Source: a virus
Lineage: Duplodnaviria; Caudoviricetes
Strand: one strand, 5' to 3'
Length of the DNA stretch: 53,990 nt
Virus record (IMG/VR): IMGVR_UViG_3300036766_001883
Coordinates: 1 to 53,990 of that record
Shown piece by piece: positions 5,616-51,197 of the stretch. Below the pieces are notes generated by a model. That model was not told the origin of the DNA. It saw only the letters and a program-made list of their open reading frames with translations, and did not search any database. The position numbers and the translations under genes were made by a program. Position 1 is the stretch's first letter. Every line of letters begins with the position of its first letter.

Positions 5616-6707
5616 ATGCCTGCCCTCATCTCCAAGAGACGCGTTGACGAGTTCCGCCGGGCGTTCGACCGCGAGATCAACTCCCTGGCGGCGCTCTACC
5701 GCAACGCCGCCGCTGATGCCCTCGACGTGTTGAGCCAGGCGGCTGCCACGGTCGCCTCGCGCCAGCGCGCTCTGGCCTTGCTGCGGCAGTATCAATATGT
5801 CCTCGCGGGACTGAACGATGAGGCGGCGCTCTGGATCCAACTCAACGTGCCCAAGGCATACCAGTTGGGGGTCGAGTTTGGAGAGCAGGGACTCCGGGGC
5901 GTACGAAGGGCAGCCGGGCGGGCGGGCATCAACCTGCGGCCAGAGGCCCGCCGTGCGGTGGCGCTCCGGGAGCGGGATGTCTTCTCGCGGGTACACCAGG
6001 AAGCGGTGCAAGCGATAACGGGTGCGATGCTCGATCAGGTGAACGCCGCGGTCCTGGAGATCGGGCGGCGGACGGATGATGTTTTCAGGCAGCAAGGCAT
6101 CCTGGCGGTGGCCAGGGGCGTCGCCGCCGGCAAGGCGCGCGTCGAGGTGAGCCGCGAGATCAAGGACCGGCTGATCGCGGCGGGCCAGCCGGTCTTCCGC
6201 GATCGCCTCAACCGCGTCTGGACGCTGGACCGCTACGCCGAGATGGTGGCGCGGACGACCACGCGGGAGGCGATGACGCAGGGGACGATCAACCGACTGC
6301 GGGAAGAGGGGATCGTGCTGGCGCAGGTGAGTCAGCACCCCTGCAAAGATTTTTGCGTCTATTATGAAAACGTCATCGTCTGCATCCAGGGGACCCATCC
6401 GGTCTATCCCGGCATCGAGGCGATCGGCGGCGGCCCACCATTCCACCCTCGGTGCATACATGTCCTGAGGCCCTTCGTCGAACGGCTGGCGAGCCGCGAA
6501 GAGAAGCAGGAGGGCAAGGTCGCGGCGGACCTGCTGCGGCCGGAAGGGAAGAGCAAGGAGCAGCACTTCGCCCTGCTCCAGCGGCGGTTCACGAAAGAAT
6601 TCCCGCAGTTGGCGCGCGAGGAGGGGAAGCGCCTCCGAGCCGAGGGCGCCCGGGCAGAGGCGCGGCGCGAGCGCGCGATCGCGCGGGCAGGCGCAAAATC
6701 TTCCTGA
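5616..6707 (+). CDS. Minor capsid / head morphogenesis protein
   Basis: YAEMVARTTTREA, CKDFC, PPFHPRCIH motifs. Confidence 0.85.
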   Translation: MPALISKRRVDEFRRAFDREINSLAALYRNAAADALDVLSQAAATVASRQRALALLRQYQYVLAGLNDEAALWIQLNVPKAYQLGVEFGEQGLRGVRRAAGRAGINLRPEARRAVALRERDVFSRVHQEAVQAITGAMLDQVNAAVLEIGRRTDDVFRQQGILAVARGVAAGKARVEVSREIKDRLIAAGQPVFRDRLNRVWTLDRYAEMVARTTTREAMTQGTINRLREEGIVLAQVSQHPCKDFCVYYENVIVCIQGTHPVYPGIEAIGGGPPFHPRCIHVLRPFVERLASREEKQEGKVAADLLRPEGKSKEQHFALLQRRFTKEFPQLAREEGKRLRAEGARAEARRERAIARAGAKSS

Positions 6708-6714
6708 TGGGGGA

Positions 6715-6742
6715 TTGACAGGGGGAGAAGTTGCGGTAGAAT
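6715..6742 (+). promoter_or_regulatory. Sigma70/SigA-type promoter
   Basis: TTGACA-N16-TAGAAT, same hexamers as the 3733 promoter. Confidence 0.7.
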
Positions 6743-6794
6743 AGCAGGTGGCCTTGGGCTCGCCTGGACGGGATCTGGGGACGAGCCCGCGATG

Positions 6795-6894
6795 ACAACC
6801 GAATAATACGGCCTGGCGACCAGAAAACTGGAGGCAGGCATCTCGCGATCCTCGAGGTGATGGAGGGTCATGGGATGTCTGCCTCTTTCTTTTT
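6795..6894 (+). promoter_or_regulatory. Attenuator B, paralogue of A
   Basis: ACAACCGAATAA, GCCTG-GCGA-CCAG-AAAA-CTGG-AGG-CAGGC; GAGGCAGGCATCTC/GGGATGTCTGCCTC stem plus TTTCTTTTT. Confidence 0.78.
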
Positions 6895-21881: not shown

Positions 21882-22435
21882 ACCCGACGTTGGTCTGCGT
21901 GAGGTCGGTATGGCCGGTCTGATTTTCGCCTACGAATGTAGGAGAGGATGTTTGCTTGCCGACGACATTTCTTGCACCAGGAGTCGTGCGCATCTGCCGA
22001 AGGAGCGCGAATGCCAGGCGAGAACTCGTCTCGCGGTTTGATGACAAGACACCGATGGCATTGCTTCTGCGTCGTGGAGCGGTAGGTGGCGTGGGTCTGG
22101 CTATGGGCGCGATGAGATTTGATGAGCACAAGATTGGAGGGGTCGTTGTTCATCCCATTTCCGTCTTTGTGATGAACCACCTCGCCCGGCTCAAGCGGGC
22201 GACCGAGGTGCTGCTCCATGACGTAGCGATGCTCATAGACCTTCCTTCCGTTGAGGCCGAATACATGATAGCCCCTACTCACGCAGCCGCCCTTCCACCG
22301 CGGATGTCTCGTCCCCCGCTGGGCCATTCCGAGACATTGGGGCGAGCAATAGATCTGAGGTCTGTGGCACGGTCTGTAACTTTGCCCGCAAATAGGACAG
22401 GTTCGGTTCGCCCGCCAGAGAGCTCGAGGTTTCAT
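21878..22435 (-). CDS. HNH homing endonuclease with zinc-ribbon motifs
   Basis: VYEHRYVMEQHLGRPL..EVVHHKDGNGMNNDPSNL; several CxxC. Confidence 0.9.
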   Translation of the reverse strand: MKPRALWRANRTCPICGQSYRPCHRPQIYCSPQCLGMAQRGTRHPRWKGGCVSRGYHVFGLNGRKVYEHRYVMEQHLGRPLEPGEVVHHKDGNGMNNDPSNLVLIKSHRAHSQTHATYRSTTQKQCHRCLVIKPRDEFSPGIRAPSADAHDSWCKKCRRQANILSYIRRRKSDRPYRPHADQRRV

Positions 22436-24436: not shown

Positions 24437-27400
24437 ATGGCGACGATTGCCTCGAAGGACCGGACGCAGACCTTCACCCTGCGGGTTGGCGAACTCGCCG
24501 AGGTCCTTGACCGGCGCACGCGGGCTGCGAAGACCTTCCGTCTTCCCGACGCGCCCGATGGGCGCCGGCGGTTCCGCATCGGCGCGGGTATCGGGCCCGT
24601 TCACTACCGGGCCGACCCGTTCGATGGCGGCCAGCCGCTCCAGGAAATTGACCTCGACGTCAACTTGACGCCGGGGCAGGACTGGGACGCCGCCTGCGAA
24701 ACCAACGGCTACCAGGCTCGATTCTGGCAGTCCCGCGTCATCGGCGGCCGCACGGTCCGCTACATCGCGGAGTTCCGACGCGCCGGGGAATGGATCGGAA
24801 TGGCGCCCGTCGCATTGGCCTGGGAAAACGATGCCGGCCAACGGCAACTGATCGCAACCCCCCAGGCGGTCGGCGCGCCGGCGATAGACAACGACGCCAA
24901 CACGGTCACCTGGGCGAATGCCTTCGGACCCGGCCTTTCGTGGCGCTACAACCTGCGGCCGGACGAATTCTTCAAGACCGTGATCATCCGGCACCGCAGC
25001 GACCTGCCCGCGCCGACGATTGGAACCCAAGGACTGAGACTGGGCATAGTGGTCGCGGTCGCCTGGGGCGACCTCGGGCCTAGCAACGGGTTCACGGCCG
25101 GCAACGCGGTCGCGGACTATGGCGCGGAGTTCTCGGACCTCGACGCGCCCGATGAGGCGGCGCAGGAGCCCGAACCGTTTTCGATGCGCGACCTGGCGGC
25201 CAGGGATATCTGCTGGCTTCGCCGGCCCCGGGCCTGGGACTCCTCGCGGAGGCAGCAAACCGCGGCAATGGGTTGGAAACTGCTGAGGAAGGCCGGAAGG
25301 GTCTATCTGGTTCTGAGCCTTCCGGCGGCCACACTCAACTCCGCCCAGGTCCAGTATCCGGTCTTCCTCGACACGGCGATCAGCGAGGAGCAAGTTGGGG
25401 CCAGCACCGATGATTGTAGGGTCTTGCCGCCTTGGAGTGAGATCGACCTGGCTGGCTACTATGCCTGGGCAGGGGACTACTCCTCCCTCTACTACGACTA
25501 TGAGTCCGGGTTTCGCTTTACGACGGTTCCGATACCGCAGGGGGTGACGATAGACAGCGCCGACCTGAGCGTTTGTGCAGGCTGGGGAACCGTTGGCATT
25601 CCCCTTACGAAGGTCCGCGGGGAGGCCGCCGACAACCCTGTCACTTTCTCAACCTATGCCGATTTCATCAGCAGGGCACGAACGACCGCAGGGCTTGACT
25701 GGGACTTCAGCGACTGGCCAGCGGATGTCTGGGAAACGAGCCCCGATTTGAAGTCCGTCGTGCAGGAAATCACCAACCGCAGCGGCTGGGCGAGCAATAA
25801 TGCTCTTGTTCTATTTTGGGGTGATGACCAGGGGTCGGGCTACCAGGGCAGCAACTACCAGGCCGTCAAGACGTACGACCTGGAGACCACCACAGCCGCG
25901 AAGTTCAACTGCTCCTACACGGAAAACCCGGCCAAGGCGGTATCCGACACCGGCGCGGGGGCGGACGCGACTCCGTCAATCAAGGCGGCAGTTGCGCGCA
26001 CCGATTCCGGCGCGGGGGCGGACGCGACTCCGTCAATCAAGGCGGCAGTTGCGCGCACCGATTCCGGCGCGGGGGCGGACGCGACTCCGTCAATCAAGGC
26101 GGCAGTTGCGCGCACCGATTCCGGCGCGGGGGCGGACGAGGTCTGGGCGGCGGGGCCGGCTGTAATTACCGAGGACGACATGGGCGCCGGCGCAGATGCG
26201 GTAACGACGACTGTGGTCATCGCCGTGGCGGACGAGGTGGTTGGCCCCGATCATCTGCTTGATATCCTCGCGGGATTGAGTGTCCTTGATAACGGCGTGG
26301 CAGACGACACCCTGGCGGTATCAGCGGGGGTTCCAGTCGAAGACGCCGGCCTCGGAGAGGACGCCACAGGTGTGACGGTCGCAGGCCAAGCGCCATTTGT
26401 CTCCGACATGGCCAGTGGAGCAGAGACGATCTCGATCACCCGAGCCGGGATCGTCGTGATGCCGGTCAGTTGTGAGATAGATTCGGACCTGGAAAACCTG
26501 GCGGACTCGGTACAGTTGGCGATCCTGGAGAAAGACTTGGCGGCGCCACTCGCGCCGGCGGCGCTGAAATGGCTGACGATCAGCGACGGCGATAGCATAC
26601 GCGTGAGGCTCGGCCTGCGCGGACTGGATCTGCTGGACTACGGGGAATTTCGCGTGGATGAGTCTTCGCTCGAGGCGATCGGGTCCCAACTGGCTACGGC
26701 AATCCGAGGGCGGGACAAGGCCGCCCGTCTGATCGAGGAGCGGGCGCGCATCCAGTATGGCCAGGGCGATTATCCAGAGGAGAACCCGGAGATCTTCACC
26801 AACCCGACCGCCCGGGCGGTCGCGCTGCGGATCTGCCAGCGCGTCGGCATGTCCTTGATCTGGGATGCCCCCAACTACCAGTTGGTCTCTTTCACGCTGA
26901 AGCCTGAGGACACGCTGAGCAAGGCACTGGGCGACCTCCTGGGGCCCCTGAGACAGGGGAAGCGCTACCGGGCGGATGCCTGGGCCGAAGGCGACCAGGT
27001 GATCGTGCGCCGGCGGGGGTATGGGCCGATCGAGGGCAGGATTGACTGCCGCCTGGCGCCCCATGTCTCCATTCGCAGGGAGAAGCGGCCGACCGTCGGT
27101 GAGATCAGCGTAAGCGGCGCCGGCTGGGGCAGTGTAGGGGCAATGGAGTGGCCAGCGCTCGAGGCGCAGGCCGGCGAGAGTTCGATTTACGGGGTCAATG
27201 GCCCGCTGCACCGCGAGGTCGTCACCACAACCTCGGAAGGCGTAATTGCGCGAGAAACCGAGGACATCGAGACGACGCAGTGGGGGAACGAGATCCTGAT
27301 ATCCAGGCGGGTCACGACCGAGGAACGAGATCTGCACACCAGCGACCCGAAGTCATCGCGGCGCGAGACGAGTTACGGCCACGACACCCGGGGCAAACTG

Positions 27401-27979
27401 ATCCTGCAAGATGAACTGGTCACCGAAAACGGCAAGCGGACCCGCCACACAATCACACGCTGGACGCCCGGGCTGCATACGGTCTGCCAGACCGTCATCG
27501 AGTGCGGCTACGACTACGACGGGCACGAGTACGTGCTGGAAGGGTATCCGAGGTCTACCGAGACGCCGGGCGAGATGCCGGAGGCGCCCCGGGTGACGGG
27601 CGACCCGGACCACCGGATCGTCGTGACGGAGGAGGGCGTGGAGGGCGGGGCGCTCAGTCCGCACTCGGCCGAGGGCCAGGCGGACGGCGGCGGCACGATG
27701 CCCGTCGTTGTGCACCTGGATGGAGTTCGGGATGCCGCCTTGTGCCAGCAGGTTGCGGATGACCTGGCGGCCGAGAGTGGGAAGTGGCTCTACACGGTAA
27801 CGATGGAGTGGCCGCGGCCATTCCTTTTCCGAAAAGGCGATAAGGTGGCGCTGGGGACCGTGCCGGGAGGGATCGGCGACATCGACGAGGCGACCATCAC
27901 CGGCCTGCATACGCAGTTCGATGAGAGGCAGGCATTGTGGACCCATACGGTCAGGGTCGAATGGTGGGCAGATTCATGA
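24437..27979 (+). CDS. Large multidomain tail tip/hub protein
   Basis: 1180 aa; FRFTTVPIPQGVTIDSA.L carbohydrate-binding-like module, repeat stalk, C-terminal baseplate-hub-like region. Confidence 0.65.
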   Translation: MATIASKDRTQTFTLRVGELAEVLDRRTRAAKTFRLPDAPDGRRRFRIGAGIGPVHYRADPFDGGQPLQEIDLDVNLTPGQDWDAACETNGYQARFWQSRVIGGRTVRYIAEFRRAGEWIGMAPVALAWENDAGQRQLIATPQAVGAPAIDNDANTVTWANAFGPGLSWRYNLRPDEFFKTVIIRHRSDLPAPTIGTQGLRLGIVVAVAWGDLGPSNGFTAGNAVADYGAEFSDLDAPDEAAQEPEPFSMRDLAARDICWLRRPRAWDSSRRQQTAAMGWKLLRKAGRVYLVLSLPAATLNSAQVQYPVFLDTAISEEQVGASTDDCRVLPPWSEIDLAGYYAWAGDYSSLYYDYESGFRFTTVPIPQGVTIDSADLSVCAGWGTVGIPLTKVRGEAADNPVTFSTYADFISRARTTAGLDWDFSDWPADVWETSPDLKSVVQEITNRSGWASNNALVLFWGDDQGSGYQGSNYQAVKTYDLETTTAAKFNCSYTENPAKAVSDTGAGADATPSIKAAVARTDSGAGADATPSIKAAVARTDSGAGADATPSIKAAVARTDSGAGADEVWAAGPAVITEDDMGAGADAVTTTVVIAVADEVVGPDHLLDILAGLSVLDNGVADDTLAVSAGVPVEDAGLGEDATGVTVAGQAPFVSDMASGAETISITRAGIVVMPVSCEIDSDLENLADSVQLAILEKDLAAPLAPAALKWLTISDGDSIRVRLGLRGLDLLDYGEFRVDESSLEAIGSQLATAIRGRDKAARLIEERARIQYGQGDYPEENPEIFTNPTARAVALRICQRVGMSLIWDAPNYQLVSFTLKPEDTLSKALGDLLGPLRQGKRYRADAWAEGDQVIVRRRGYGPIEGRIDCRLAPHVSIRREKRPTVGEISVSGAGWGSVGAMEWPALEAQAGESSIYGVNGPLHREVVTTTSEGVIARETEDIETTQWGNEILISRRVTTEERDLHTSDPKSSRRETSYGHDTRGKLILQDELVTENGKRTRHTITRWTPGLHTVCQTVIECGYDYDGHEYVLEGYPRSTETPGEMPEAPRVTGDPDHRIVVTEEGVEGGALSPHSAEGQADGGGTMPVVVHLDGVRDAALCQQVADDLAAESGKWLYTVTMEWPRPFLFRKGDKVALGTVPGGIGDIDEATITGLHTQFDERQALWTHTVRVEWWADS
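25950..26138 (+). repeat. Perfect 57-bp tandem repeat, about 3.3 copies, in frame
   Basis: Units start at 25950, 26007, 26064, 26121; encode GAGADATPSIKAAVARTDS. Confidence 0.95.
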
Positions 27980-32667: not shown

Positions 32668-32764
32668 GCGGCAGCACAGGCAGCGCCGGGTCAGGCCACG
32701 ATGCCGGCACTCTAACGCAGGATACGCGCTGCAAGCGCAGCAGGGGGCCTCACCTCCCCCCGCA

Positions 32765-32805
32765 CCAGGCCCCGCCTGAGCCAGCAGAGGCGGGGCCTGG
32801 CTTTT
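32765..32805 (+). terminator. Intrinsic terminator ending the late operon
   Basis: CCAGGCCCCGCCT/AGGCGGGGCCTGG 13-bp stem plus CTTTT. Confidence 0.75.
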
Positions 32806-32917
32806 CCAGCCCAGCCGGGCAGGAAGCAGAAACGGCTTTCACCCCAGATGACTGTCCACAAGGGACCCTCGCGCCTGCCATAGCCCAAAATATTCTGCCG
32901 ACACAGCCCGAACCCTC

Positions 32918-32945
32918 TTGACAAGCGGCGAATCCGTGCTATGAT
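32918..32945 (+). promoter_or_regulatory. Sigma70/SigA promoter of the RAMP-like gene
   Basis: TTGACA-N16-TATGAT with extended TG. Confidence 0.75.
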
Positions 32946-32975
32946 ATAGGCAGTTAGGAGCACGGAGGCGGCGAG

Positions 32976-33566
32976 GTGACTATCATCAGGGTCAGGATCG
33001 AAGGCGTGGCACCGCTCATGCAGCGGAGGTTCTCGGCGGGGCCCATCGGACCAGCAGAGACACGCCCAAACCAAGGGGCAGAGGACCCGCTGGCTCAGGC
33101 CGACGCATCCCTTTACCGCGGAGACGATGGGGTGATCTATCAACCGGCGGTCCATATCGAGAGGGCACTGGAGGAGGCCGGCGCACAAATGGGGCTGCCG
33201 ACACGGGGCGCGCTATTTGTGCAACCGGACCGGATCCGGCACGAGGGTCAAAAATATATCGTTGACGCGAGGCCTGTCACCGAGGGCGGCGCCAGGGTGA
33301 TGCGCTACCGGGCGCGGTTCGATGGCTGGGGACTCCACTTCGAGATTGTCCTGCTGAACGGCCGGCTGACGGAGGCTGCCGTGAGGGGGCTCCTGGACCA
33401 TGCAGGGCGCTATGTGGGGATCGGGGAGTACCGGCCTCGCCTCGGGCGGTTCGTGGTCACCGCCTGGGAGATTGCCGGAACAGGCCAACCGCCGGGCGCC
33501 AGCCAACCTGCCGGGTCGGGGCCGGCGGCCCTAGTCCCGGAAAAAATGTCCGCTTGGCCCCCTTGA
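32976..33566 (+). CDS. Stand-alone RAMP/Cas7-like protein
   Basis: N-terminal strand IRVRIEGVAPL, IYQPAVHIERAL, YRARFDGW.L.FEI, Gly-rich loop AGRYVGIGEYRPRLGRF; RBS GGAGG. Confidence 0.75.
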   Translation: MTIIRVRIEGVAPLMQRRFSAGPIGPAETRPNQGAEDPLAQADASLYRGDDGVIYQPAVHIERALEEAGAQMGLPTRGALFVQPDRIRHEGQKYIVDARPVTEGGARVMRYRARFDGWGLHFEIVLLNGRLTEAAVRGLLDHAGRYVGIGEYRPRLGRFVVTAWEIAGTGQPPGASQPAGSGPAALVPEKMSAWPP

Positions 33567-33591
33567 CAAGCGCAGACAATTCTTGTATAGA
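33563..33591 (+). promoter_or_regulatory. Sigma70/SigA promoter
   Basis: TTGACA-N17-TATAGA; shares CTTGACAAGCG with the 32918 promoter. Confidence 0.7.
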
Positions 33592-33627
33592 GGAAGGTCG
33601 AAGCAGCGCTGGGATGGAGATGCCGTG

Positions 33628-33912
33628 ATGAGGAAGCAGCGAGCGGCGAAGCGGGGAAACAAACCGAAGCCCGTCAGGCGCGCCTACATGCGCTCGCAGA
33701 GATGGCGGAAGATCGAGGCCGCCTACGGAAGTCCGCCGACCGACATTGTGCGCGGCCACCTGAGGGAGGGGCTGACTGTGACCGAGTCGGCGGGGAGGAT
33801 CCTGCGGGAGACGCGAATCAGCGTGAATCGCGCGACCCTGTATGCCTGGCTCGCCCAGGAGGCGGAACCGGGCCGGCCGTTGGTGGAGGCAGTCGCCGCA
33901 GCGGCAAAGTGA
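33628..33912 (+). CDS. Small HTH DNA-binding protein (regulator or excisionase candidate)
   Basis: LTVTESAGRI..ISVNRATLYAWL; adjacent to attP. Confidence 0.6.
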   Translation: MRKQRAAKRGNKPKPVRRAYMRSQRWRKIEAAYGSPPTDIVRGHLREGLTVTESAGRILRETRISVNRATLYAWLAQEAEPGRPLVEAVAAAAK

Positions 33913-41961: not shown

Positions 41962-42455
41962 TCGAGATCGCACTCTATTTTGACGGGCTCTGCGAGCCGA
42001 TCAACCCGGGGGGCGTGGCTGCCTATGGTTGGTGCTACGAGCGGGATGGCGACCTGCTGGCCACCGGACGGGGCATCGCAGCGGCGGGGCCGCTCGCCAC
42101 CAACAACGTTGCCGAGTGGAGCGCTCTGATCGAGGGTTTGAAAGGCTTCGAGCGCGCGCTGTGGATCGGCGGGCTGACAATGTCGAGCCAGGATTGCGCC
42201 CTGGTCGTGCACGGCGACAGCCGACTGGTCTGCGAGCAGGTTGCCGGCAAGTCGAAGGTCAGGGCTGTCCATCTGCGGCCCCTCTGTGAGAAGGCGCAAT
42301 GCCTGCTGCCACCGCGCGCACGCGTCGAGTGGGTTCCGCGCGAGCGGAACGAACTCGCGGACAACTTGTCCCGCCTGGCATACCACGAATGGCGGGCGCA
42401 GAACCCGCGGCTTGCCGCCGATATGGATGCGGACACGGCGAGGAGGCGGGGATGA
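41958..42455 (+). CDS. rnhA: Ribonuclease HI family protein
   Basis: YFDG..NPG, TNNVAE, GDSRLV..Q, WVPRERNELAD. Confidence 0.88.
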   Translation: MIEIALYFDGLCEPINPGGVAAYGWCYERDGDLLATGRGIAAAGPLATNNVAEWSALIEGLKGFERALWIGGLTMSSQDCALVVHGDSRLVCEQVAGKSKVRAVHLRPLCEKAQCLLPPRARVEWVPRERNELADNLSRLAYHEWRAQNPRLAADMDADTARRRG

Positions 42456-42727
42456 GCGCCACGGTCCTCGAGCTCGAGATCGTCACGGAGGGCGGGGCCC
42501 GCTGGTTCGAGTTTACATGGACCGGCGATGCCGTGGAGTGGCGCGAGGCGCTCGATGCGATCAAGGCCTCGGTCCCGCCCGAGGCGCGGCAGTTCGATCC
42601 GGAGACGAAACGATGGAAAGTCCGCGAAGATTATGAAGCTCCTCTCTCGAGGATCTTCAACAACTTCGACACGTTTCTCGATTCCGTTCGCAGTCAGCTT
42701 TCGCTTTTTCCCGAGGAAGGAGCCTGA
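42452..42727 (+). CDS. Hypothetical protein (HARP-like motif)
   Basis: IKASVP..RQFDPETKRW; RBS GGAGG. Confidence 0.55.
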   Translation: MSATVLELEIVTEGGARWFEFTWTGDAVEWREALDAIKASVPPEARQFDPETKRWKVREDYEAPLSRIFNNFDTFLDSVRSQLSLFPEEGA

Positions 42728-42728
42728 G

Positions 42729-43022
42729 ATGAGATGGCAAGCGCTGGTAGGTGCGCCATGCTGGGCGCTGGCCCTGGCGGGGGTTGCGGGTGGGCTCGGC
42801 CTCATCGCCTGGGGTGGCCTGCGGGCCATGCGGGCGGCCGAGCTCGAGCGTTGTCCTCCGTCGCCAATCGAGCTACGACGCCTGCTGATGGCATCAGAGG
42901 CCGGGCGGCTGCGGAGGAGCGCGCGGCGGATCTGCTGCGCGAGCGCGGCAGTGCTGGTGGTGGCGGCGCTGCTGGCGATGGCGAGCAGCAGGCTGTTCGC
43001 CACGGCGATCCGGCCTCCCTGA
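42729..43022 (+). CDS. Two-TM membrane protein
   Basis: RBS AAGGAG; two hydrophobic segments. Confidence 0.5.
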   Translation: MRWQALVGAPCWALALAGVAGGLGLIAWGGLRAMRAAELERCPPSPIELRRLLMASEAGRLRRSARRICCASAAVLVVAALLAMASSRLFATAIRPP

Positions 43023-43053
43023 GCGCGGTAAACATTACAGAATAGTGCCAAGA

Positions 43054-43173
43054 CCGTGACAGAGCGGTGACAATCCGTGACAGAGCGGTGACGAACTGGT
43101 GACAGAAACGGTCTTGCTCCTCGCGCGCGCGCGCGTTGAAGACTCAGACTCAGACTCAGACTCAGACTCAGAC
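43054..43173. repeat. Putative replication origin: GTGAC iterons, (CG)n and (GACTCA)5
   Basis: CCGTGACAGAGCGGTGAC twice plus GGTGACAG, about 10.5-bp phasing; GACTCA x5 at 43141-43170. Confidence 0.65.
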
Positions 43174-43227
43174 AAGGAGGGCCCCCGCCGGCAGGGCGGG
43201 CCCTCCAGGTGAGAGAGGGATGGAAGG

Positions 43228-44094
43228 ATGACAAGGCAGGAAGGATGGTTCCGGGTCTATTCTGCGATTCTGGGCGACGCGAAGATTGCGCGGCTGACTG
43301 ACCTTCAGTTTAGGCTCTGGCTCTACGCCCTGGCCTTCTGCAACCAATCCCCCGGCCGACTGCGGCGGGGCGGGTTTCTCTACCACTCGCAAGGGTTCCC
43401 GGTCACGCCTGAGGATTTTGCTCGCCTGGTGCACAGGTCCCCGTCCAAGGTTACTCACGAGTTGGAGGCACTGACCAAGATCGGCGGCGACTCTCCGCTG
43501 ATGGCATGCGAGAAAGGAGTCTATCGGATCCCCGCATGGCGCAAGCGGCAGCACCTGTCCGATGAGGGCGACCTGAACGAGGATCCGACGGAAGGCGAGG
43601 GCGGTGGGGACGCGGCCGACGGCACAGCGAGAGCAGGGGAGTCCCCGGCCAGCGTCGGGCCAGGTGCCGCGACCCTGTGTTCCTGGTGCAGCAACCCGAC
43701 GCCGATCGGGGATGAGGCCAAGCCGGCCCCGCAGCGGCTGATGCAGGTGTATCACGACGCCTACCGCGCGCAGTACCGGGAGTGCCCGGTGCCCGTGGCC
43801 GCGGATTGGGCGGGCCTGAAACGCCTGCTCAAGCAGGGCAAGCCGGTCGAGCGCATCGCAGGAGTCATCCGCGAAGGAGTGACTTGCGAGGAGCCCTTCC
43901 TCGCGCGAACAGGGCACAAGTTGAGCGTCATCTTGAGCAATTATCAGGGCATTGCCCAGGCGGTAGATCGAGGTGAGCCATATGGAGCCAATCGGGCCCG
44001 AGGTAAAGAAACAACACGCAGACATAGTCCGCAGGACGCAGGCGACCCGCGAGATTCTGGACGAATGGTCCTGCGACGCCGAATGGAAACCTGA
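43228..44094 (+). CDS. Phage replication initiator
   Basis: WFRVY..ILGDAKIARL..FRLWLYAL N-terminal wHTH; upstream of the DnaC-like gene. Confidence 0.75.
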   Translation: MTRQEGWFRVYSAILGDAKIARLTDLQFRLWLYALAFCNQSPGRLRRGGFLYHSQGFPVTPEDFARLVHRSPSKVTHELEALTKIGGDSPLMACEKGVYRIPAWRKRQHLSDEGDLNEDPTEGEGGGDAADGTARAGESPASVGPGAATLCSWCSNPTPIGDEAKPAPQRLMQVYHDAYRAQYRECPVPVAADWAGLKRLLKQGKPVERIAGVIREGVTCEEPFLARTGHKLSVILSNYQGIAQAVDRGEPYGANRARGKETTRRHSPQDAGDPRDSGRMVLRRRMET

Positions 44095-44794
44095 TTGCGA
44101 GCGGTGCGCAGGACCGCGGGGCTTGATCTCGATGGAGCGCGCGGGCCAGCGGCTGCGCGTGGCTTGCCCGCTGCGGCGGGATGCGCTGCTGTGCCGGCTG
44201 GCGCGGCTGGACAGGGACCGCGCACTGCACGAGCGCCGGCGGTGGATGCGGGATGCGGCGATCCCACCGCGGTATCGCGGGGCAGATATCGAGCGCGTGG
44301 CACCGCAGGTGCGCGAGGATGTTCGGGCTTACCTCGACCGCCTTGCCGAGCACACTGGGAAGGGGCACGGCCTGGTGATCACGGGCGATACGGGGGTCGG
44401 AAAGTCCTCGGTCATGGGCCTGGTGGCGGACCGCGCGTGCGAGCTCTCGATGACGTCGGTCCACTGGGCCCACGCGACGGACATCTTCACGGCCGTCTGC
44501 GACCGCGACACGGAGGAGGGCAGGCAGTTATGGACTTGGCGGACCTGCCGCCTGCTGCTGGTGGATGAATTTGCGGGGGCATACATGCACGCCTTTCCGC
44601 TGGGCCGTTTCGAGGCATTCATGGAGGCACGCCACGGGCAGGCTCTCACCACGTGCCTGACGATGAACCTGCTGGTTGAGGATCTCGAGCGCGCCCGGGA
44701 GATCGCCCGGCTGGTGGACCGGTGGGGCCAAACGTGTTACGTGCTCGAGATCCGAGGCCCGTCACAGCGGCAGCCGCTGGAGGGCACACCGTGA
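43973..44794 (+). CDS. DnaC/IstB-like AAA+ helicase loader
   Basis: CERC..C, IPPRY, GDTGVGKS, LLLVDE. Confidence 0.85.
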   Translation: MSHMEPIGPEVKKQHADIVRRTQATREILDEWSCDAEWKPDCERCAGPRGLISMERAGQRLRVACPLRRDALLCRLARLDRDRALHERRRWMRDAAIPPRYRGADIERVAPQVREDVRAYLDRLAEHTGKGHGLVITGDTGVGKSSVMGLVADRACELSMTSVHWAHATDIFTAVCDRDTEEGRQLWTWRTCRLLLVDEFAGAYMHAFPLGRFEAFMEARHGQALTTCLTMNLLVEDLERAREIARLVDRWGQTCYVLEIRGPSQRQPLEGTP

Positions 44795-44799
44795 GAGAT

Positions 44800-44839
44800 C
44801 GCATGGCAACGCAGGGCATGGCATGGCGAGGCTTGGAAG
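44800..44839 (+). repeat. Intergenic 5-nt-periodic GGC-NN tract (8 units)
   Basis: CGCat GGCaa CGCag GGCat GGCat GGCga GGCtt GGAag. Confidence 0.7.
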
Positions 44840-44857
44840 CAGATCCCAAAACGGAGG

Positions 44858-45088
44858 ATGCCAACAATGGCCGAGCCGATGCAGATCGCGATCACCGAGG
44901 CAGAGGCGATCGCAGTACTCGAGTGCACGCTCGCCGCGCTGCGAGGGCCGGAGGGCCGGGGGCCGTGCGCCTCACTCGCCAAGCGGTGGGCGGGAACCCT
45001 GGCGAAGATGCTATTGGACCGGGGGGTGATTCCGGCTGCCACTGCGGACGAGTGGCAGCGAGAACTTCTGGGCGGTGGATCCGCATGA
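44858..45088 (+). CDS. Hypothetical protein
   Basis: RBS GGAGG; start 44858 or 44867. Confidence 0.5.
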   Translation: MPTMAEPMQIAITEAEAIAVLECTLAALRGPEGRGPCASLAKRWAGTLAKMLLDRGVIPAATADEWQRELLGGGSA

Positions 45089-45356
45089 CAGGATTGAGCG
45101 CAGGAGCCTAGGCGTGACGAAGGCGAGCATGATGATCGAGTTGGGGCGGGCGAAGATCGGCCTGGGCGCGCGGAAGATGCTCGATGCGCTGCTGGATGTC
45201 TATCCCGCGGCATTGACCCGCGAGAAGTTGGCCGAGGCCACGGGATACTCGCGAGCGAGCAGCACTTTCCGCAACAACCTGTCGGCCCTGCGGAGTAATG
45301 AGATCGCCGATGTCCGCGGGCAGGAAGTCTGCGCTGCAGAGGCGCTGTTCCCATGA
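45075..45356 (+). CDS. Winged-HTH protein or gene fragment
   Basis: LTREKLAEATGYS..SSTFRNNLSALRS. Confidence 0.55.
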   Translation: MDPHDRIERRSLGVTKASMMIELGRAKIGLGARKMLDALLDVYPAALTREKLAEATGYSRASSTFRNNLSALRSNEIADVRGQEVCAAEALFP

Positions 45357-45366
45357 CAGGACGGCG

Positions 45367-45633
45367 ATGAATCGATCGAAGGACATCCGGGTGCCAAGAT
45401 GCTGCCTCTGCGGACAGGCTGTTCTCATCGTGAGCGAGCCATTCGACTGCATCGTGGTCTCAGCCACGGTGGAGGGATCCGGGGTCCTGGCCCGGGCGGT
45501 CCACTGGAGATGCCTCGAGTCGGCGGCACCTGAGATCCACGTCCGATTGCATGGCGAGTACGAGAGGATCCTGACTGCGATGGCCCGGGCGCGGATCTCG
45601 CGCGGCCTGCCGGCCGATCCGAGGATGAACTGA
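45367..45633 (+). CDS. Small Cys/His protein
   Basis: CCLC..HWRC. Confidence 0.45.
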   Translation: MNRSKDIRVPRCCLCGQAVLIVSEPFDCIVVSATVEGSGVLARAVHWRCLESAAPEIHVRLHGEYERILTAMARARISRGLPADPRMN

Positions 45634-45744
45634 TGGGGCCGATTTACGAATTGATAAATTTCAGGATCGAGGAAGCGCGATGACGCGCTCCATCGGACGG
45701 TTCGAGCCCGAGAGCATCGATCGGTGCGGTGCGGGGGAGACCCG

Positions 45745-45954
45745 ATGAGGTTTCCCACGATGAGCGAGCGGTGCCCGCTTTGCGGGGAGGGTTTCGTGAA
45801 GGGGGACCCCGTTGAGACGGCACTCATGACGGTGCCGGGCGGTTTTGCGGGCGTATCTTTCCATCAGCGCTGTGTCAAGGGAGACCCGAAAGCGGCGCAG
45901 GCAAAGCAGATCGCGCGCGACCTGACTCAACCTACGCCCCGGGTCATGCACTGA
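45745..45954 (+). CDS. Small zinc-binding protein
   Basis: CPLC..HQRC; RBS GGGAG. Confidence 0.5.
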   Translation: MRFPTMSERCPLCGEGFVKGDPVETALMTVPGGFAGVSFHQRCVKGDPKAAQAKQIARDLTQPTPRVMH

Positions 45955-45975
45955 GAGGAGAAGGCAACGGTAGCG

Positions 45976-46440
45976 ATGGGCATAGATTTGGGGAGACCGG
46001 GTGGCGTCGTGGTGCTGGACGACGGGCGCCCGGGCAAGCCGGTGTGCATCTGCGCGGCGGGAGTGCCCGCCAAGATCACGGAGCTGGAGTATCAGAAGTT
46101 GCTGCATGGGCTGATGAAACAGTTCCGGCCGGACATCATCGCCGACGAGCGGCCCGGGCACTGGGGCAGGATATTCATCGGGATGAGCCAGTCTCGCGAC
46201 GACGCGCTGGCGACGGCCGCCGCGCAGGCGCTGCAGATCCCGCTGCGGCGGTTCGAGCCCCGGCGCGTGAAGATGCTGGTGGCCGCGAACGGGCGCGCCT
46301 CGAAGCAGGACGTTGGCCAGGCCGTGTCTGCGCTGGTGCGGATGCCCGCGGGCGAGCACAGCGAACACGTGACGGATGCAGCGGCTATTGCACTCGTGGC
46401 GCTCAAGGGATCGTCGCGGGGGCAGAGGGGCAGAAGATGA
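45976..46440 (+). CDS. ruvC: RuvC-like Holliday junction resolvase
   Basis: MGIDLG, PDIIADE, VK..V..NGRASK..V, EHVTDAAAIAL. Confidence 0.85.
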   Translation: MGIDLGRPGGVVVLDDGRPGKPVCICAAGVPAKITELEYQKLLHGLMKQFRPDIIADERPGHWGRIFIGMSQSRDDALATAAAQALQIPLRRFEPRRVKMLVAANGRASKQDVGQAVSALVRMPAGEHSEHVTDAAAIALVALKGSSRGQRGRR

Positions 46441-46904
46441 TCGCCTTGTCGGTGAGGCAGCCGTGGGCGGAGGCGATCGTGCTCGGCCTGAAGACGATCG
46501 AGGTGCGCACGTGGGTGCCGTTCTCGATCCGGCTGCCGAGGCGGATAGCGATTCACGCAGGCAAGGCGGTGCCGCGATCGTGGCCGCCCTCGGTGGACGC
46601 CGCGATGAAGAGAGTCGGCGACCGTTATGGATGCATCGTAGGCGTGGCGACGCTGATTGATGTGAGGCGCTTCGCGGATCGGACCGACTTCGAGAACGCG
46701 GCAAGCCAACATCTGAACCCGCTGGCCTGGTGGCAGCCGGGACTGTGCGCGTGGCAATTCGGGCAGGCGATGCGCTTCGAGGAGCCGATACCGTGCCGTG
46801 GCATGCAGGGCCTGTTCGAATTGGCCGATCAGGAAGCCCAGGTCGTGATCGCAGCGATCGCCGGCCTGAGAGCACCGCAAGAAAGGAGCAACAATGAGGA
46901 CTAA
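46437..46904 (+). CDS. ASCH domain protein
   Basis: ALSVRQPWA..I..GLKTIEVRTW..IAIHAGK..PIPCRGMQGLF. Confidence 0.9.
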   Translation: MIALSVRQPWAEAIVLGLKTIEVRTWVPFSIRLPRRIAIHAGKAVPRSWPPSVDAAMKRVGDRYGCIVGVATLIDVRRFADRTDFENAASQHLNPLAWWQPGLCAWQFGQAMRFEEPIPCRGMQGLFELADQEAQVVIAAIAGLRAPQERSNNED

Positions 46905-47448
46905 CTGGCAGCAACGAGCAGTAAGCATCAACAGGCGACTGAAGCATCGGAAGGCGCTTCGCGCGCTGAGGTTCTTCAAGCTCATGCTCGTCGCGGGTCT
47001 GTGCGGCTGGCTGTTATCGTGTCCGAGGGGGCAGACGAAGTACGTCATGGCCGCGCAGGCCAAGGCCCGAACAGGCGTTGACCCCACGGTAACCTGGACG
47101 CAGGACAAGGCCAGCCTGCATCCGGCCGAGACTTTGATCATCACGATCAAGGTGGCGGTTCCCACGACAGAGACCGCCGACGCGACGGGCGTGGTGCTCA
47201 CCGTCAACCTGTCCTCCTACCTGGAGATGCAGAGCATTGCCAGGGGGGCGTTCTCGATCGACAATTCGGCCTGCATCACCGCGACCCAGCAGCCGACCCC
47301 GTCATGCGCGAATGCCACAACCAATGTGCCGGAGTTTCCCCTGACGCTGACACCCGACTCGACGAACAAGATCACGGTCGCGATCGGGGTCTTGAAGCGG
47401 GGCGAGACAAATACCTATCTCGTCCGGGCCAAATTGCGCGGGACGTAG
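46894..47448 (+). CDS. Membrane-anchored Ig-like (DUF11-like) protein
   Basis: TM segment, then DKASLHPAETLIITIKV..ATGVVLT..IGVLKRGE. Confidence 0.55.
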   Translation: MRTNWQQRAVSINRRLKHRKALRALRFFKLMLVAGLCGWLLSCPRGQTKYVMAAQAKARTGVDPTVTWTQDKASLHPAETLIITIKVAVPTTETADATGVVLTVNLSSYLEMQSIARGAFSIDNSACITATQQPTPSCANATTNVPEFPLTLTPDSTNKITVAIGVLKRGETNTYLVRAKLRGT

Positions 47449-50341: not shown

Positions 50342-51197
50342 CGAGTGGAACGCGAACACGTTCGATCCCGAGAATTACCCCAAGCTGGTCGAGAGCATCC
50401 GGGACCGCGGCATCATGGAGCCTCTCAAGGTCATGCCGGACCCCTGCTGTGCGATCGCCAGGGGCGGCGATGGAAATACCGAGGATCTCCGCTACCTGCT
50501 GATTGACGGGTATCACCGCTGGCTCGCCGCCGAGGAGCTGGGGCTGATGGAACTGCCTTGCGAGGTCTGGGAGATCAGCCTCGAGGAAGCGAAGATCCGC
50601 GGCCTTCAGTTGAACTACCTTCGCGGCCAGCCGGTGCCGCAGCGGCTGGCCGCCCTGCTGCACGATCTCAATGCCACGTTCGCGGTCGAGGATCTGGCGA
50701 ACCTATTGCCCTGGTCGGCGGGCGAGATCGAGCAGGCGATAGACCTGTTGCCCTGGTCGGCGGGCGAGATCGAGCAGGCGATAGACCTGCTGGCCTGCGA
50801 TGATGACCGACTCCTCGTCGAATTGCTACGGGAACGCCAGGCGACGGGGACCCTGGCTTCGACGGGATGGGACGACGAGGCGCTGCGCGAGATGATGGGG
50901 CGGCTGGACATGCTCGACGAGGGCTTACCTGCCGATCCGGGACCGGGCGCCGTGCCGGCGCAGGCGGTGACGCACCCGGGCGACGTGTGGATGATGGGCC
51001 GCCACCGCGTCGCTGCCGCGACGGGCAAGAGGCGGGCCGAGCTAACCGAGGCTGTTCGCATCTTCTCATCCGAGCACAGTCTACCCGAGGAGCAGGTGCG
51101 GATACGCGCTGTGGTGCTCATTGATCAGCGGCAGCGCAAGCGCGATGGCTTTCTATGGGTGCCACCCAAGCCGACGCGCTACGCCTCCTTGCGTTGA
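50310..51197 (+). CDS. ParB/Srx-domain protein; N-terminal part of an interrupted ParB-methylase fusion
   Basis: IRPNEWNAN, LVESIR..G...PL, LIDGYHRW; ends with PGDVWMMGRHR followed by unrelated sequence. Confidence 0.8.
   Translation: MMIPREQIRPNEWNANTFDPENYPKLVESIRDRGIMEPLKVMPDPCCAIARGGDGNTEDLRYLLIDGYHRWLAAEELGLMELPCEVWEISLEEAKIRGLQLNYLRGQPVPQRLAALLHDLNATFAVEDLANLLPWSAGEIEQAIDLLPWSAGEIEQAIDLLACDDDRLLVELLRERQATGTLASTGWDDEALREMMGRLDMLDEGLPADPGPGAVPAQAVTHPGDVWMMGRHRVAAATGKRRAELTEAVRIFSSEHSLPEEQVRIRAVVLIDQRQRKRDGFLWVPPKPTRYASLR
50706..50789 (+). repeat. Perfect 42-bp tandem duplication, in frame
   Basis: LPWSAGEIEQAIDL encoded twice. Confidence 0.9.

What the first reader, a model, noticed from the sequence alone, without database searches (positions are those of the whole stretch)
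44800..44839. Non-coding GGC-NN pentamer array: possible gapped-code guide RNA
Seen: between the dnaC-like stop and the next RBS lie 8 in-phase pentamers with a near-constant triplet (CGC,GGC,CGC,GGC,GGC,GGC,GGC,GGA) and variable dinucleotides (AT,AA,AG,AT,AT,GA,TT,AG). Period 5 is not explained by codons. The variable, AT-rich NN positions are unlike a slippage microsatellite in a GC-rich genome. Inference: the triplets are protein-binding handles, one RAMP subunit per pentamer, and the NN positions specify a target.
Basis: partly seen in the sequence, partly recalled or inferred. Interest (0 to 1): 0.85.

Follow-up and report, generated by a model that had tools for sequence, protein, structure and literature searches.

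The report
Short remote VIPR-type guide-RNA candidate
The five-base repeat is probably a short guide-like RNA for this phage's own Vipr protein, part of a CRISPR-like phage system first described in 2026, but it is unusually short and lies unusually far from the protein's gene.

Summary
The eight pentamers are at 44800-44839 as described.

The idea matches a system published in 2026, VIPR. In it a RAMP protein (Vipr) binds one GGY per protomer on a GGY/NN repeat RNA (vrRNA), and the NN bases read DNA with a one-base skip (papers read).

- **The phage encodes a Vipr homologue at 32976-33566.** Its profile hits the SUSP1 Vipr PDB chain at E 2.3e-19, and its model has a Cas7-like fold.
- **Homologous vipr loci carry adjacent arrays.** 40 of 42 have YNNGG arrays within 1.5 kb. 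This phage and its closest relative do not.
- **The tract is the only array the caller finds in the genome.** It has 7 units, 6 of them perfect. Only 4 of 500 shuffles reach 6 of 7.
- **It is conserved at the syntenic site in the relative.** That site has 4 units, and the core matches at 20 of 21 bases against 155 of 222 in the adjacent gene.

No transcript data, no target and no structured tail were found. My verdict is a probable (about 0.55) short, remote vrRNA-like element. The scan has reported VIPR on other DNA many times.

The parts
44802..44836 (+). YNNGG (GGY/NN) array, candidate short vrRNA: CATGG CAACG CAGGG CATGG CATGG CGAGG CTTGG. NN code: AT AA AG AT AT GA TT (then AG after a non-canonical GGA).
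   Evidence: It is the only array called genome-wide. 4 of 500 shuffles reach 6 of 7 perfect units. The core 44816-44836 is 20 of 21 identical to G001.
43973..44794 (+). DnaC-like helicase-loader gene upstream of the tract. The gene call in the database starts at residue 54.
   Evidence: phrog_50 E 6.4e-15. AAA_16 and IstB hits lie below the Pfam cut-offs. P0001 is 97% identical over residues 54-273.
44837..44866 (+). Leader between the array and the next gene, with GGAGG at 44853-44857. No conserved tail structure was detected.
   Evidence: RNA fold z +0.64. 16 of 30 columns identical to G001.
44867..45088 (+). 73-aa helical protein of unknown function. The tract travels with this gene as its 5' leader.
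   Evidence: 66% identical to L048:1556-1777 in G001. All 6 differences from L002 are synonymous in this frame. No Pfam, PHROG or PADLOC hit. Not found by tblastn in the other 41 vipr loci.
32976..33566 (+). vipr homologue (stand-alone RAMP), the presumed protein partner, 11,236 nt upstream of the tract.
   Evidence: Profile A3 against PDB 36pp_D 'SUSP1 Vipr protein', E 2.3e-19 over the full length. The single sequence gives E 2.6e-9. The model (pLDDT 73.9) matches Cas7-type chains of Csm, Cmr and type VII complexes at E from 3.7e-5. 40 of 42 homologous loci carry adjacent YNNGG arrays.
32918..32945 (+). Promoter-like TTGACA, 16-nt spacer, TATGAT in front of vipr. No array lies between it and the start codon.
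   Evidence: Read from the sequence. The block is nearly identical in L006. It was not scanned with the promoter tool.
33583..33912 (+). ORF directly downstream of vipr, a possible accessory (vap-like) gene. This is untested.
   Evidence: ORF table. No Pfam hit at E 0.001 or better. The region is homologous in L006 at 6560-6874 (found with a mis-framed query).

Best explanation
The window is a complete 54-kb temperate phage genome. It carries a VIPR system in an unusual layout.

The gene at 32976-33566 encodes a Vipr protein, a stand-alone RAMP. As published for phage SUSP1, Vipr polymerises on RNA with one protomer per pentamer, holds each GGY and presents the two NN bases. This phage's vipr has no adjacent guide array. 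The 7-unit YNNGG tract at 44802-44836 is the phage's vrRNA-like element. It is transcribed on the + strand within the replication-operon mRNA, between the DnaC-like gene and a 73-aa gene.

Inferred steps:
1. Vipr protomers coat the tract, a little over one helical turn of the published filament.
2. The protected piece then either acts as a short guide that reads a DNA site of the form ATxAAxAGxATxATxGAxTT, or acts in cis on the leader of the 73-aa gene.

What is shown and what is inferred:
- Shown here: the motif, its uniqueness in the genome, the Vipr homologue, the strand, and the conservation in a relative.
- Taken from the papers: the binding mode and the one-base-skip code.
- Inferred only: transcription and processing of this tract, its binding by this Vipr, and any target.
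For: (1) Partner protein.
- The family profile hits the SUSP1 Vipr PDB chain at E 2.3e-19 over the full length.
- The fold search gives Cas7-type chains of Csm, Cmr and type VII complexes, 35 matches at E 0.001 or better.
- Of the SUSP1 RNA-contact residues, R138 and R179 are kept. D177 is E, W178 is Y and H17 is R.

(2) Family behaviour.
- 40 of 42 homologous vipr loci have at least one YNNGG array within 1.5 kb.
- All 164 arrays near vipr are on the vipr strand.
- The two exceptions are L017 and L006, this phage's closest relative. The window itself also has no adjacent array, including under the alternative masks NNNGG, YNNNG and NNNNG within 2.5 kb.

(3) The tract.
- It meets the papers' calling rule of at least 4 YNNGG units.
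- It passes the generic caller's lag-density prefilter of 0.55, at 22-24 of 35.
- It is the only array called in the genome, and 4 of 500 shuffles reach 6 of 7.
- It is non-coding, on the + strand like vipr, and within the 20 kb that the October preprint uses for 'not solo'.

(4) The relative G001 (Vipr 66-69% identical).
- It has exactly one YNNGGx5 match at 1 mismatch or fewer in 58,402 nt.
- The match is 12.1 kb downstream of its vipr, directly before the homologue of the 73-aa gene.
- Homology with the window begins at the tract. The core is 20 of 21 identical, against 16 of 30 in the leader and 155 of 222 in the CDS.

(5) Three vipr-less relatives of the replication module (G002 complete, G003 and G004 partial) have no tract.

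(6) In other clades, arrays sit 40-75 nt before a start codon with a ribosome-binding site, so a position in a leader is not odd.
Against: - Length. The tract has only 7 units, one of them degenerate (CAACG), and the relative has only 4. The published range is 9-16, and the arrays called here had 6-40 units, most of them 8 or more.
- Distance. It is 11.2 kb from vipr. In 412 kb of flanks more than 1.5 kb from vipr in other loci, only 2 arrays were called. Both look like GC-rich chance hits, so remote arrays are not a usual feature.
- False-call rate. Those 2 calls fall in 122 kb of loci with GC of 0.58 or more. The real-sequence false-call rate in GC-rich DNA could therefore approach 1 per genome of this size.
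By it, 50 of 100 shuffles match.
- No tail. RNA folding is not better than shuffles (z +0.64 and +0.43), and there is no Rfam match.
- NN bases. They are nearly unchanged between the two lineages (7 of 8 in the four aligned units). That is what a fixed cis-element would show, not a fast-changing guide.
- Linkage. The tract is linked to the 73-aa gene in both phages, so its co-occurrence with vipr cannot be separated from shared ancestry (n = 2).
- No target. The best self match is 11 of 14. Relatives also give 11 of 14 at best. Matches in viral contigs lie almost all in AT-rich records, as chance predicts.
- A second YNNGGx5 match with 1 mismatch lies on the minus strand at 32760-32784, inside a terminator hairpin.
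Confidence: 0.55

Rival explanations
1. The tract is a conserved cis-regulatory leader of the 73-aa gene, such as a binding site for a translational or transcriptional regulator or an mRNA-stability element. It fits the YNNGG pattern by coincidence and has nothing to do with Vipr.
For: - The tract is linked to the 73-aa gene in both lineages, while the upstream gene differs: a DnaC-like gene here and the rep-like gene in G001.
- The core is 20 of 21 identical including the NN bases.
- It ends 16 nt before the ribosome-binding site.
- No target was found.
Against: - A random conserved leader would rarely spell 6 of 7 YNNGG units. Only 4 of 500 shuffles of the whole genome do so.
- It occurs in a genome whose Vipr lacks any other array, while 40 of 42 homologous loci have one.
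- No regulator or RNA structure is evident.
Confidence: 0.2
2. The tract is a decaying remnant of a former vrRNA, or of an array that moved with a gene module. It is still recognisable but no longer functions as a guide.
For: - It is short (7 units here, 4 in G001), has one degenerate unit and a non-canonical GGA at the end, and has no tail.
- It lies at a mosaic joint between modules.
Against: A neutral remnant should not be better conserved than the adjacent coding sequence. The core is 20 of 21 identical against 155 of 222 in the CDS. vipr itself keeps its promoter and RNA-contact residues.
Confidence: 0.12
3. The tract is a chance, degenerate pentanucleotide microsatellite ((GCATG)n-like slippage product) with no function.
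For: - Tandem Repeats Finder score is 33, below its default threshold.
- The lag-5 excess is marginal: 2.7% of 300 shuffles, before correction for the 11 lags tried.
- Unit number differs between lineages by 15 nt, a whole number of units.
Against: - No length or base variation was seen in the tract in the contigs that bridge it. These are 2 full bridges (X3 record 1 and X4 record 9) and 2 partial covers.
- It is conserved across a lineage whose neighbouring CDS is 70% identical.
- It is unique by the published motif.
Confidence: 0.08

Closest known systems
VIPR type II vrRNAs of Escherichia phage SUSP1 and the P. fulva prophage (bioRxiv 10.64898/2026.04.26.720920; structures in 10.64898/2026.04.26.720927)
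   Same: Tandem 5-nt units with a constant GGY and two guide bases. A stand-alone RAMP (Vipr) is encoded in the same phage. The array is on the same strand as vipr and lies in a non-coding spacer.
   Different: 7 units (4 in the relative) against 9-16. It is 11.2 kb from vipr instead of in the flanking intergenic regions. No invariable structured tail or pseudoknot was detected. It lies in the leader of an unrelated gene inside an operon. Expression, binding and target were not shown.
Solo (orphan) vrRNAs of F5 satellites and VIPR-null SUSP1-like phages (bioRxiv 10.64898/2026.10.15.759431)
   Same: A vrRNA located away from any vipr-vap operon. Some published solos are also too short for a target to be assigned.
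   Different: Published solos are defined by having no vipr on the contig or none within 20 kb, and they keep the SUSP1-type 40-nt tail. Here vipr is present 11.2 kb away and no tail is seen.
Class 1 CRISPR crRNA on a Cas7 backbone
   Same: RAMP protomers polymerise along a guide RNA, and thumb domains break the duplex periodically. The fold of the 32976 protein matches Cas7-type chains of Csm, Cmr and type VII complexes.
   Different: Class 1 complexes flip every sixth base of a contiguous spacer (as stated in the VIPR paper). Here the period is 5, with three sequestered bases. There is no CRISPR array and no other cas gene: Pfam RAMPs gave 0 matches in six frames and PADLOC gave 0 hits for the 10 proteins scanned.
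Mini-guides that CRISPR systems use for self-regulation (CreA of CreTA, scaRNA/tracr-L). These are recalled from memory and were not checked in any call.
   Same: A short, degenerate, conserved guide-like RNA that lies outside the main array and uses the effector for gene regulation.
   Different: They belong to a different effector family. This is an analogy only, and no regulatory target was found here.

Membership tests
VIPR vrRNA | Tandem YNNGG (GGY/NN) units, at least 4 (calling rule of the discovery paper) | tested here: met
   A run of 5 perfect units, and 6 of 7 perfect, at 44802-44836. The rule was read.
VIPR vrRNA | Typical length of 9-16 repeat units | tested here: not met
   7 units here and 4 in G001. 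The published range was read.
VIPR vrRNA | A cognate Vipr protein encoded on the same element (within 20 kb = not 'solo') | tested here: met
   vipr homologue at 32976-33566, 11,236 nt away. The 20-kb criterion was read.
VIPR vrRNA | Encoded in the intergenic regions that flank vipr/vap | tested here: not met
   No array within 2.5 kb of vipr under any of the four masks. 40 of 42 homologous loci do have one within 1.5 kb.
VIPR vrRNA | Same strand as vipr | tested here: met
   Both are on the + strand. All 164 arrays near vipr in the 42 loci are on the vipr strand. All genes of this phage are on the + strand, so the test is weak.
VIPR vrRNA | Invariable structured 3' tail after the repeats | tested here: inconclusive
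   Fold z +0.64. The leader is 16 of 30 identical to G001. Other clades seen here have separators of only 2-4 nt, so a long tail is not universal.
VIPR vrRNA | GGY conserved and NN hypervariable among relatives | tested here: inconclusive
   In the four units aligned with G001, GGC is 12 of 12 identical and NN is 7 of 8. Near-identical strains show no change. There are only two lineages.
VIPR vrRNA | Expressed as a small RNA that co-purifies with Vipr | not testable with these tools
   No RNA data are on hand (see Tried and rejected).
VIPR vrRNA | Natural target with at least 80% NN match under the one-base-skip rule, and no self-target | tested here: inconclusive
   The best self match is 11 of 14, or 79%, so there is no self-target. 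Matches in viral contigs are chance-like: none of the 115 eight-unit matches is in a locus with GC of 0.58 or more.
Vipr protein (stand-alone ancestral RAMP) | Sequence relation to a characterised Vipr, a RAMP fold with G-loop, and arrays beside its homologues | tested here: met
   E 2.3e-19 to PDB 36pp_D. The G-loop GIGEYRPRLGRF aligns with GVGDWRPRFGRF. Cas7-like fold. 40 of 42 loci have arrays.
CRISPR-Cas | A repeat-spacer array and further cas genes | tested here: not met
   Tandem and direct repeats show no CRISPR array. Pfam RAMPs gave 0 matches in six frames. PADLOC gave 0 hits for the 10 proteins scanned.

The most novel reading that the evidence does not exclude
In this GC-rich Vipr sub-clade the usual guide array next to vipr has been replaced by a single conserved mini-vrRNA of 4-7 units, embedded in the replication-operon mRNA. 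The phage would use Vipr for its own gene control rather than for warfare between phages. Two routes are possible. A Vipr filament on the leader could control the 73-aa gene. Alternatively, the short guide could repress a conserved AT-rich site. This would parallel the mini-guides that some CRISPR systems use for self-regulation.
Probability: 0.15. Interest if true: 0.7.

Novelty: new variant of a known kind. Interest (0 to 1): 0.5.

Why it matters
VIPR was described only in 2026. What is in print covers arrays next to vipr and tailed 'solo' guides.

If this tract works with the phage's Vipr, it would show three things. Guides can be very short. They can sit in another operon more than 10 kb from vipr, outside the ±10-kb windows of the discovery pipeline. 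They can stay nearly fixed between relatives, which points to a regulatory rather than a combative use.

It also gives a defined sub-clade to test for relaxed recognition of the first G. Its G-loop reads GIGE[Y/H]RP, and the residue at the position of SUSP1 H17 is R where the N-terminus is available.

If the tract does not bind Vipr, the case is a useful warning. Short GGY/NN runs in GC-rich phages are near the false-call floor.

Tried and rejected
- **Rfam** on 42000-47000 at E up to 10 gave only a chance lncRNA match. No tRNA was found.
- **RNA folds** of 44785-44870 on both strands were no better than shuffles.
- **Promoter/terminator scan** of 42400-46000 found nothing near the tract.
- **blastn** of 43200-46500 against the phage collection gave no match.
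- **The DnaC-like protein** alone found no relative in viral contigs. In metagenome contigs it found two near-identical pieces, L001 and L002. These are too close to be informative: the tract is identical.
- **Three distant DnaC-like loci** (L003-L005) have no tract after the stop codon. I first read this as evidence against function. It later turned out that the tract belongs to the 73-aa gene module, which those loci lack.
no second site in the genome.
- **One-base-skip pattern**: the best self matches are 11 of 14, 2 sites against 0.47 expected.
  - Relatives also give 11 of 14 at best.
  - The 8-unit pattern gave 115 matches, 103 of them in loci with GC below 0.5 and none at 0.58 or more. 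No convergence on a target was seen, so no target is claimed.
- **A codon-aligned exact match to the last four NN pairs** at 45132-45142 is probably chance: 30 of 100 shuffles have such a match, and the full guide matches only 10 of 14 there. G001 has no nearby counterpart.
- **Alternative masks** NNNGG, YNNNG and NNNNG near vipr found nothing in the window, and one NNNNG run of 9 in L006.
- **The 73-aa protein**: no family hit. The Atlas gave only small helical look-alikes. The only relative in viral contigs is G001, and there is none in genome contigs.
- **The Vipr sub-clade in genome contigs**: one distant hit only.
- **Sequencing runs**: no RNA holder listed. Laying DNA contigs of 4 runs showed no difference inside the tract.
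- **Supplementary files** of the three preprints were not opened, as the brief says they are closed. Their type tables and vrRNA lists could show whether this clade, or remote short vrRNAs, are already catalogued.
- **Not used**: complex prediction, the second structure job and build_rna_model.

Full report
**What is there.** The window is a whole virus record of 53,990 bases with direct terminal repeats. It is 64.8% G+C with positive GC skew throughout, and the genes with family hits all lie on the + strand. The tract lies in a 72-nt spacer. Upstream is the TGA stop (44792-44794) of a DnaC-like helicase-loader gene (phrog_50, E 6.4e-15). Downstream is a 73-codon gene with GGAGG at 44853-57 and ATG at 44867. 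That gene is real. All six differences between the window and the near-identical metagenome piece L002 are synonymous in its frame. The neighbourhood is a replication and recombination module. It holds an RNase H-like gene, a rep-like ORF, the DnaC-like gene, a RuvC-like gene and an ASCH-domain gene. Further upstream lie an integrase and SbcCD-like genes.

**Is it more than chance?** The answer depends on the definition.
With any triplet allowed, 100 of 100 do. The genome itself has a GGG-NN run of ten at 22069.
- Lag-5 self-similarity at the stated coordinates is 22 of 35, reached by 36% of 300 shuffles. The best window at the locus (24 of 35) is reached by 2.7% of the 300 (8 shuffles), before correction for the 11 lags examined.
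- Tandem Repeats Finder scores it 33, below its default threshold.
- There is no RNA structure (z +0.64 and +0.43), no Rfam family and no promoter or terminator.

At that stage the tract looked like a weak, degenerate pentanucleotide repeat.

**The turn.**
- Pfam, PADLOC and a six-frame search with the Pfam RAMPs model found nothing. PHROGs gave only an unnamed family.
- A profile of its seven homologues hit one PDB chain, 36pp_D 'SUSP1 Vipr protein', at E 2.3e-19 over the full length. The single sequence gives E 2.6e-9.
- An AlphaFold model (pLDDT 73.9) matches Cas7-type chains of Csm, Cmr and type VII complexes, with 35 matches at E 0.001 or better.

A literature search on the name led to three 2026 preprints. 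I read the named sections of each. They report the following.
- VIPR systems consist of Vipr, a stand-alone RAMP, and vrRNAs of 9-16 YNNGG units followed by a tail.
- One Vipr protomer binds each repeat, sequesters GGY and presents NN.
- The NN bases read double-stranded DNA with one skipped base per unit.
- Candidate vrRNAs were called from four YNNGG units upward.
- Solo vrRNAs far from any vipr gene exist.

**Re-testing with the published motif.** In the YNNGG register the tract is CATGG CAACG CAGGG CATGG CATGG CGAGG CTTGG (44802-44836).
- It has a run of five perfect units and six of seven perfect. Of 500 shuffles scanned on both strands, 15 have a run of five or more and 4 have six or more of seven.
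- It is the only array my caller reports in the genome. With YNNGGx5 at one mismatch or fewer, the window has four matches against 0.68 expected. Three overlap at the tract. One lies on the minus strand at 32760-32784, inside a terminator hairpin.
- I fetched 42 loci that encode relatives of the 32976 protein and applied the same caller to all of them, with none dropped. The caller requires at least 6 units, at least 70% perfect, and stops at two consecutive misses.
- 40 of the 42 have at least one array within 1.5 kb of vipr. All 164 arrays near vipr are on the vipr strand.
- In the 412,288 nt that lie further away, only 2 arrays were called. Both are in one 70%-GC locus and have GC-rich NN bases.

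This confirms that the family is Vipr and shows the usual layout. The two loci without an adjacent array are L017 and L006, the closest relative of this phage's Vipr (66% identity by tblastn, 69% in the alignment). The window itself also has no array next to vipr. Alternative masks find nothing within 2.5 kb. The upstream spacer holds a terminator and a conserved promoter with only about 25 nt of leader.

**The relative.** The record behind L006 is G001 (58,402 nt). It has exactly one YNNGGx5 match at one mismatch or fewer. The control pattern, read backwards, also gave one forward match, whose place is not listed. The match reads TTACG CATGG CATGG CGAGG CATGG. It lies 12.1 kb downstream of G001's vipr, directly in front of the homologue of the 73-aa gene (66% identical).

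The gene upstream of the tract differs there. It is the rep-like gene, and G001 has no DnaC-like gene at that place. Homology with the window begins at the tract. Identities are:

| Segment (window coordinates) | Identical to G001 |
|---|---|
| Core, 44816-44836 | 20 of 21 |
| Leader, 44837-44866 | 16 of 30 |
| Coding sequence, 44867-45088 | 155 of 222 |

By my own binomial arithmetic, at 70% per-site identity 20 or more of 21 has a probability of about 0.006. The window has three more units than G001, and one NN pair differs (TT against AT). Three vipr-less relatives of the replication module (G002 complete, G003 and G004 partial) have neither the tract nor vipr, and L003 lacks the 73-aa gene. 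Contigs from four other sequencing runs show no base or length change inside the tract. Two bridge it fully and two cover it partly. They are strain-level relatives, so this says little.

**Reading.** The most likely explanation (about 0.55) is that the tract is this phage's vrRNA-like element. It would be transcribed within the replication operon and coated by the phage's Vipr. Several points fit this.
- The SUSP1 residues that hold G2 and Y3 are kept or conservatively replaced: R138, R179, and W178 to Y. The two residues reported to bond G1 are changed: H17 to R and D177 to E.
- Two of the eight triplets have C in place of the first G, which could mean that recognition of the first G is relaxed. 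This link is my inference.
- Arrays placed 40-75 nt before a start codon, and arrays with separators of only 2-4 nt instead of long tails, occur in other clades. The position in a leader and the lack of a pseudoknot therefore do not disqualify the tract.

**Against it.**
- The tract is short and remote.
- The empirical false-call rate in GC-rich phage DNA could be near one per genome (2 calls in 122 kb).
- The NN bases are almost fixed between the two lineages.
- The tract is linked to the 73-aa gene, so its co-occurrence with vipr rests on two related phages.
- No target emerged. Self matches stop at 11 of 14, which agrees with the papers' finding that guides do not hit their own contig. Relatives give 11 of 14 at best.
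- Exact matches in viral contigs lie almost all in AT-rich records, as chance predicts.
- Fourteen informative bases are too few for a database-wide search.

**Rivals.**
- A conserved leader element unrelated to Vipr (0.2).
- A non-functional remnant of a vrRNA (0.12).
- A chance microsatellite (0.08).

**Known and new.** The kind is known: VIPR, in print since April 2026. This scan has already reported it many times, with 771 findings holding the search words. Three of those notes describe solo guides that lie beside their targets. I tested that lead here and found only a four-unit match 300 nt downstream that chance explains.

Three things differ from what I read in the papers' main text: a vipr gene without any adjacent array, a single array of 4-7 units more than 10 kb away in another operon, and near-fixed guide bases. 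I did not see the supplementary tables, which may already list such cases. I rate it a new variant of a known kind, of moderate interest and uncertain function.

Noticed in passing
43056-43207: Upstream of the rep-like ORF (43228-44094) there is an 11-nt GTGACAG-type repeat x4.7, a CG run, AGACTC x5.7 (100% matches), and then a GC-rich hairpin. This is a candidate iteron, origin or operator region, and a stronger repeat signal than the finding itself.
   Followed up: no
32884-32975: vipr has its own TTGACA/TATGAT promoter-like site. It is preceded by a block (from about 32884) that is almost identical in the relative L006, although the rest of the spacer has diverged. This is a possible operator.
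   Followed up: partly
32760-32784 (minus strand): A second YNNGGx5 match with one mismatch lies inside the terminator hairpin 190 nt upstream of vipr, on the opposite strand. It is probably chance: 37% of 500 shuffles have a run of 4 or more, and all 164 arrays near vipr in the homologous loci are on the vipr strand.
   Followed up: partly
45132-45142: ATGATCGAGTT matches the last four NN pairs of the tract exactly under the one-base-skip rule, with the skipped bases at codon third positions of ORF 45075-45356. The full 7-unit match is only 10 of 14, and 30 of 100 shuffles have such a 4-unit match somewhere in the genome.
   Followed up: yes
45151/45152: The window and the L002/X3/X4 lineage are collinear and about 99% identical up to 45151, then diverge abruptly inside ORF 45075-45356. 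This is a mosaic joint.
   Followed up: no
25950-26138: A 57-nt tandem repeat, 3.3 copies, 100% identical, inside the 1180-codon ORF 24437-27979.
   Followed up: no
50701-50797: A 42-nt tandem repeat, 2.3 copies, 94% matches.
   Followed up: no
32976-33566 vs clusters P0153 and P0001: A relative whose DnaC-like protein is 97% identical (P0001) and a Vipr that is only 59-60% identical (P0153) both list a longest contig of 54,072 nt. If they lie on one contig, vipr diverges far faster than the replication module. I could not confirm this.
   Followed up: no
L042, L029, L043 (vipr loci of other GC-rich viral contigs): Arrays there are split into vrRNA-sized blocks of 9-12 units by separators of 2-4 nt (TT, ATAT, ACAT). 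Several blocks end in CTTGG/CATGG units like the end of the tract here. L043 instead has hairpin tails of about 48 nt.
   Followed up: partly
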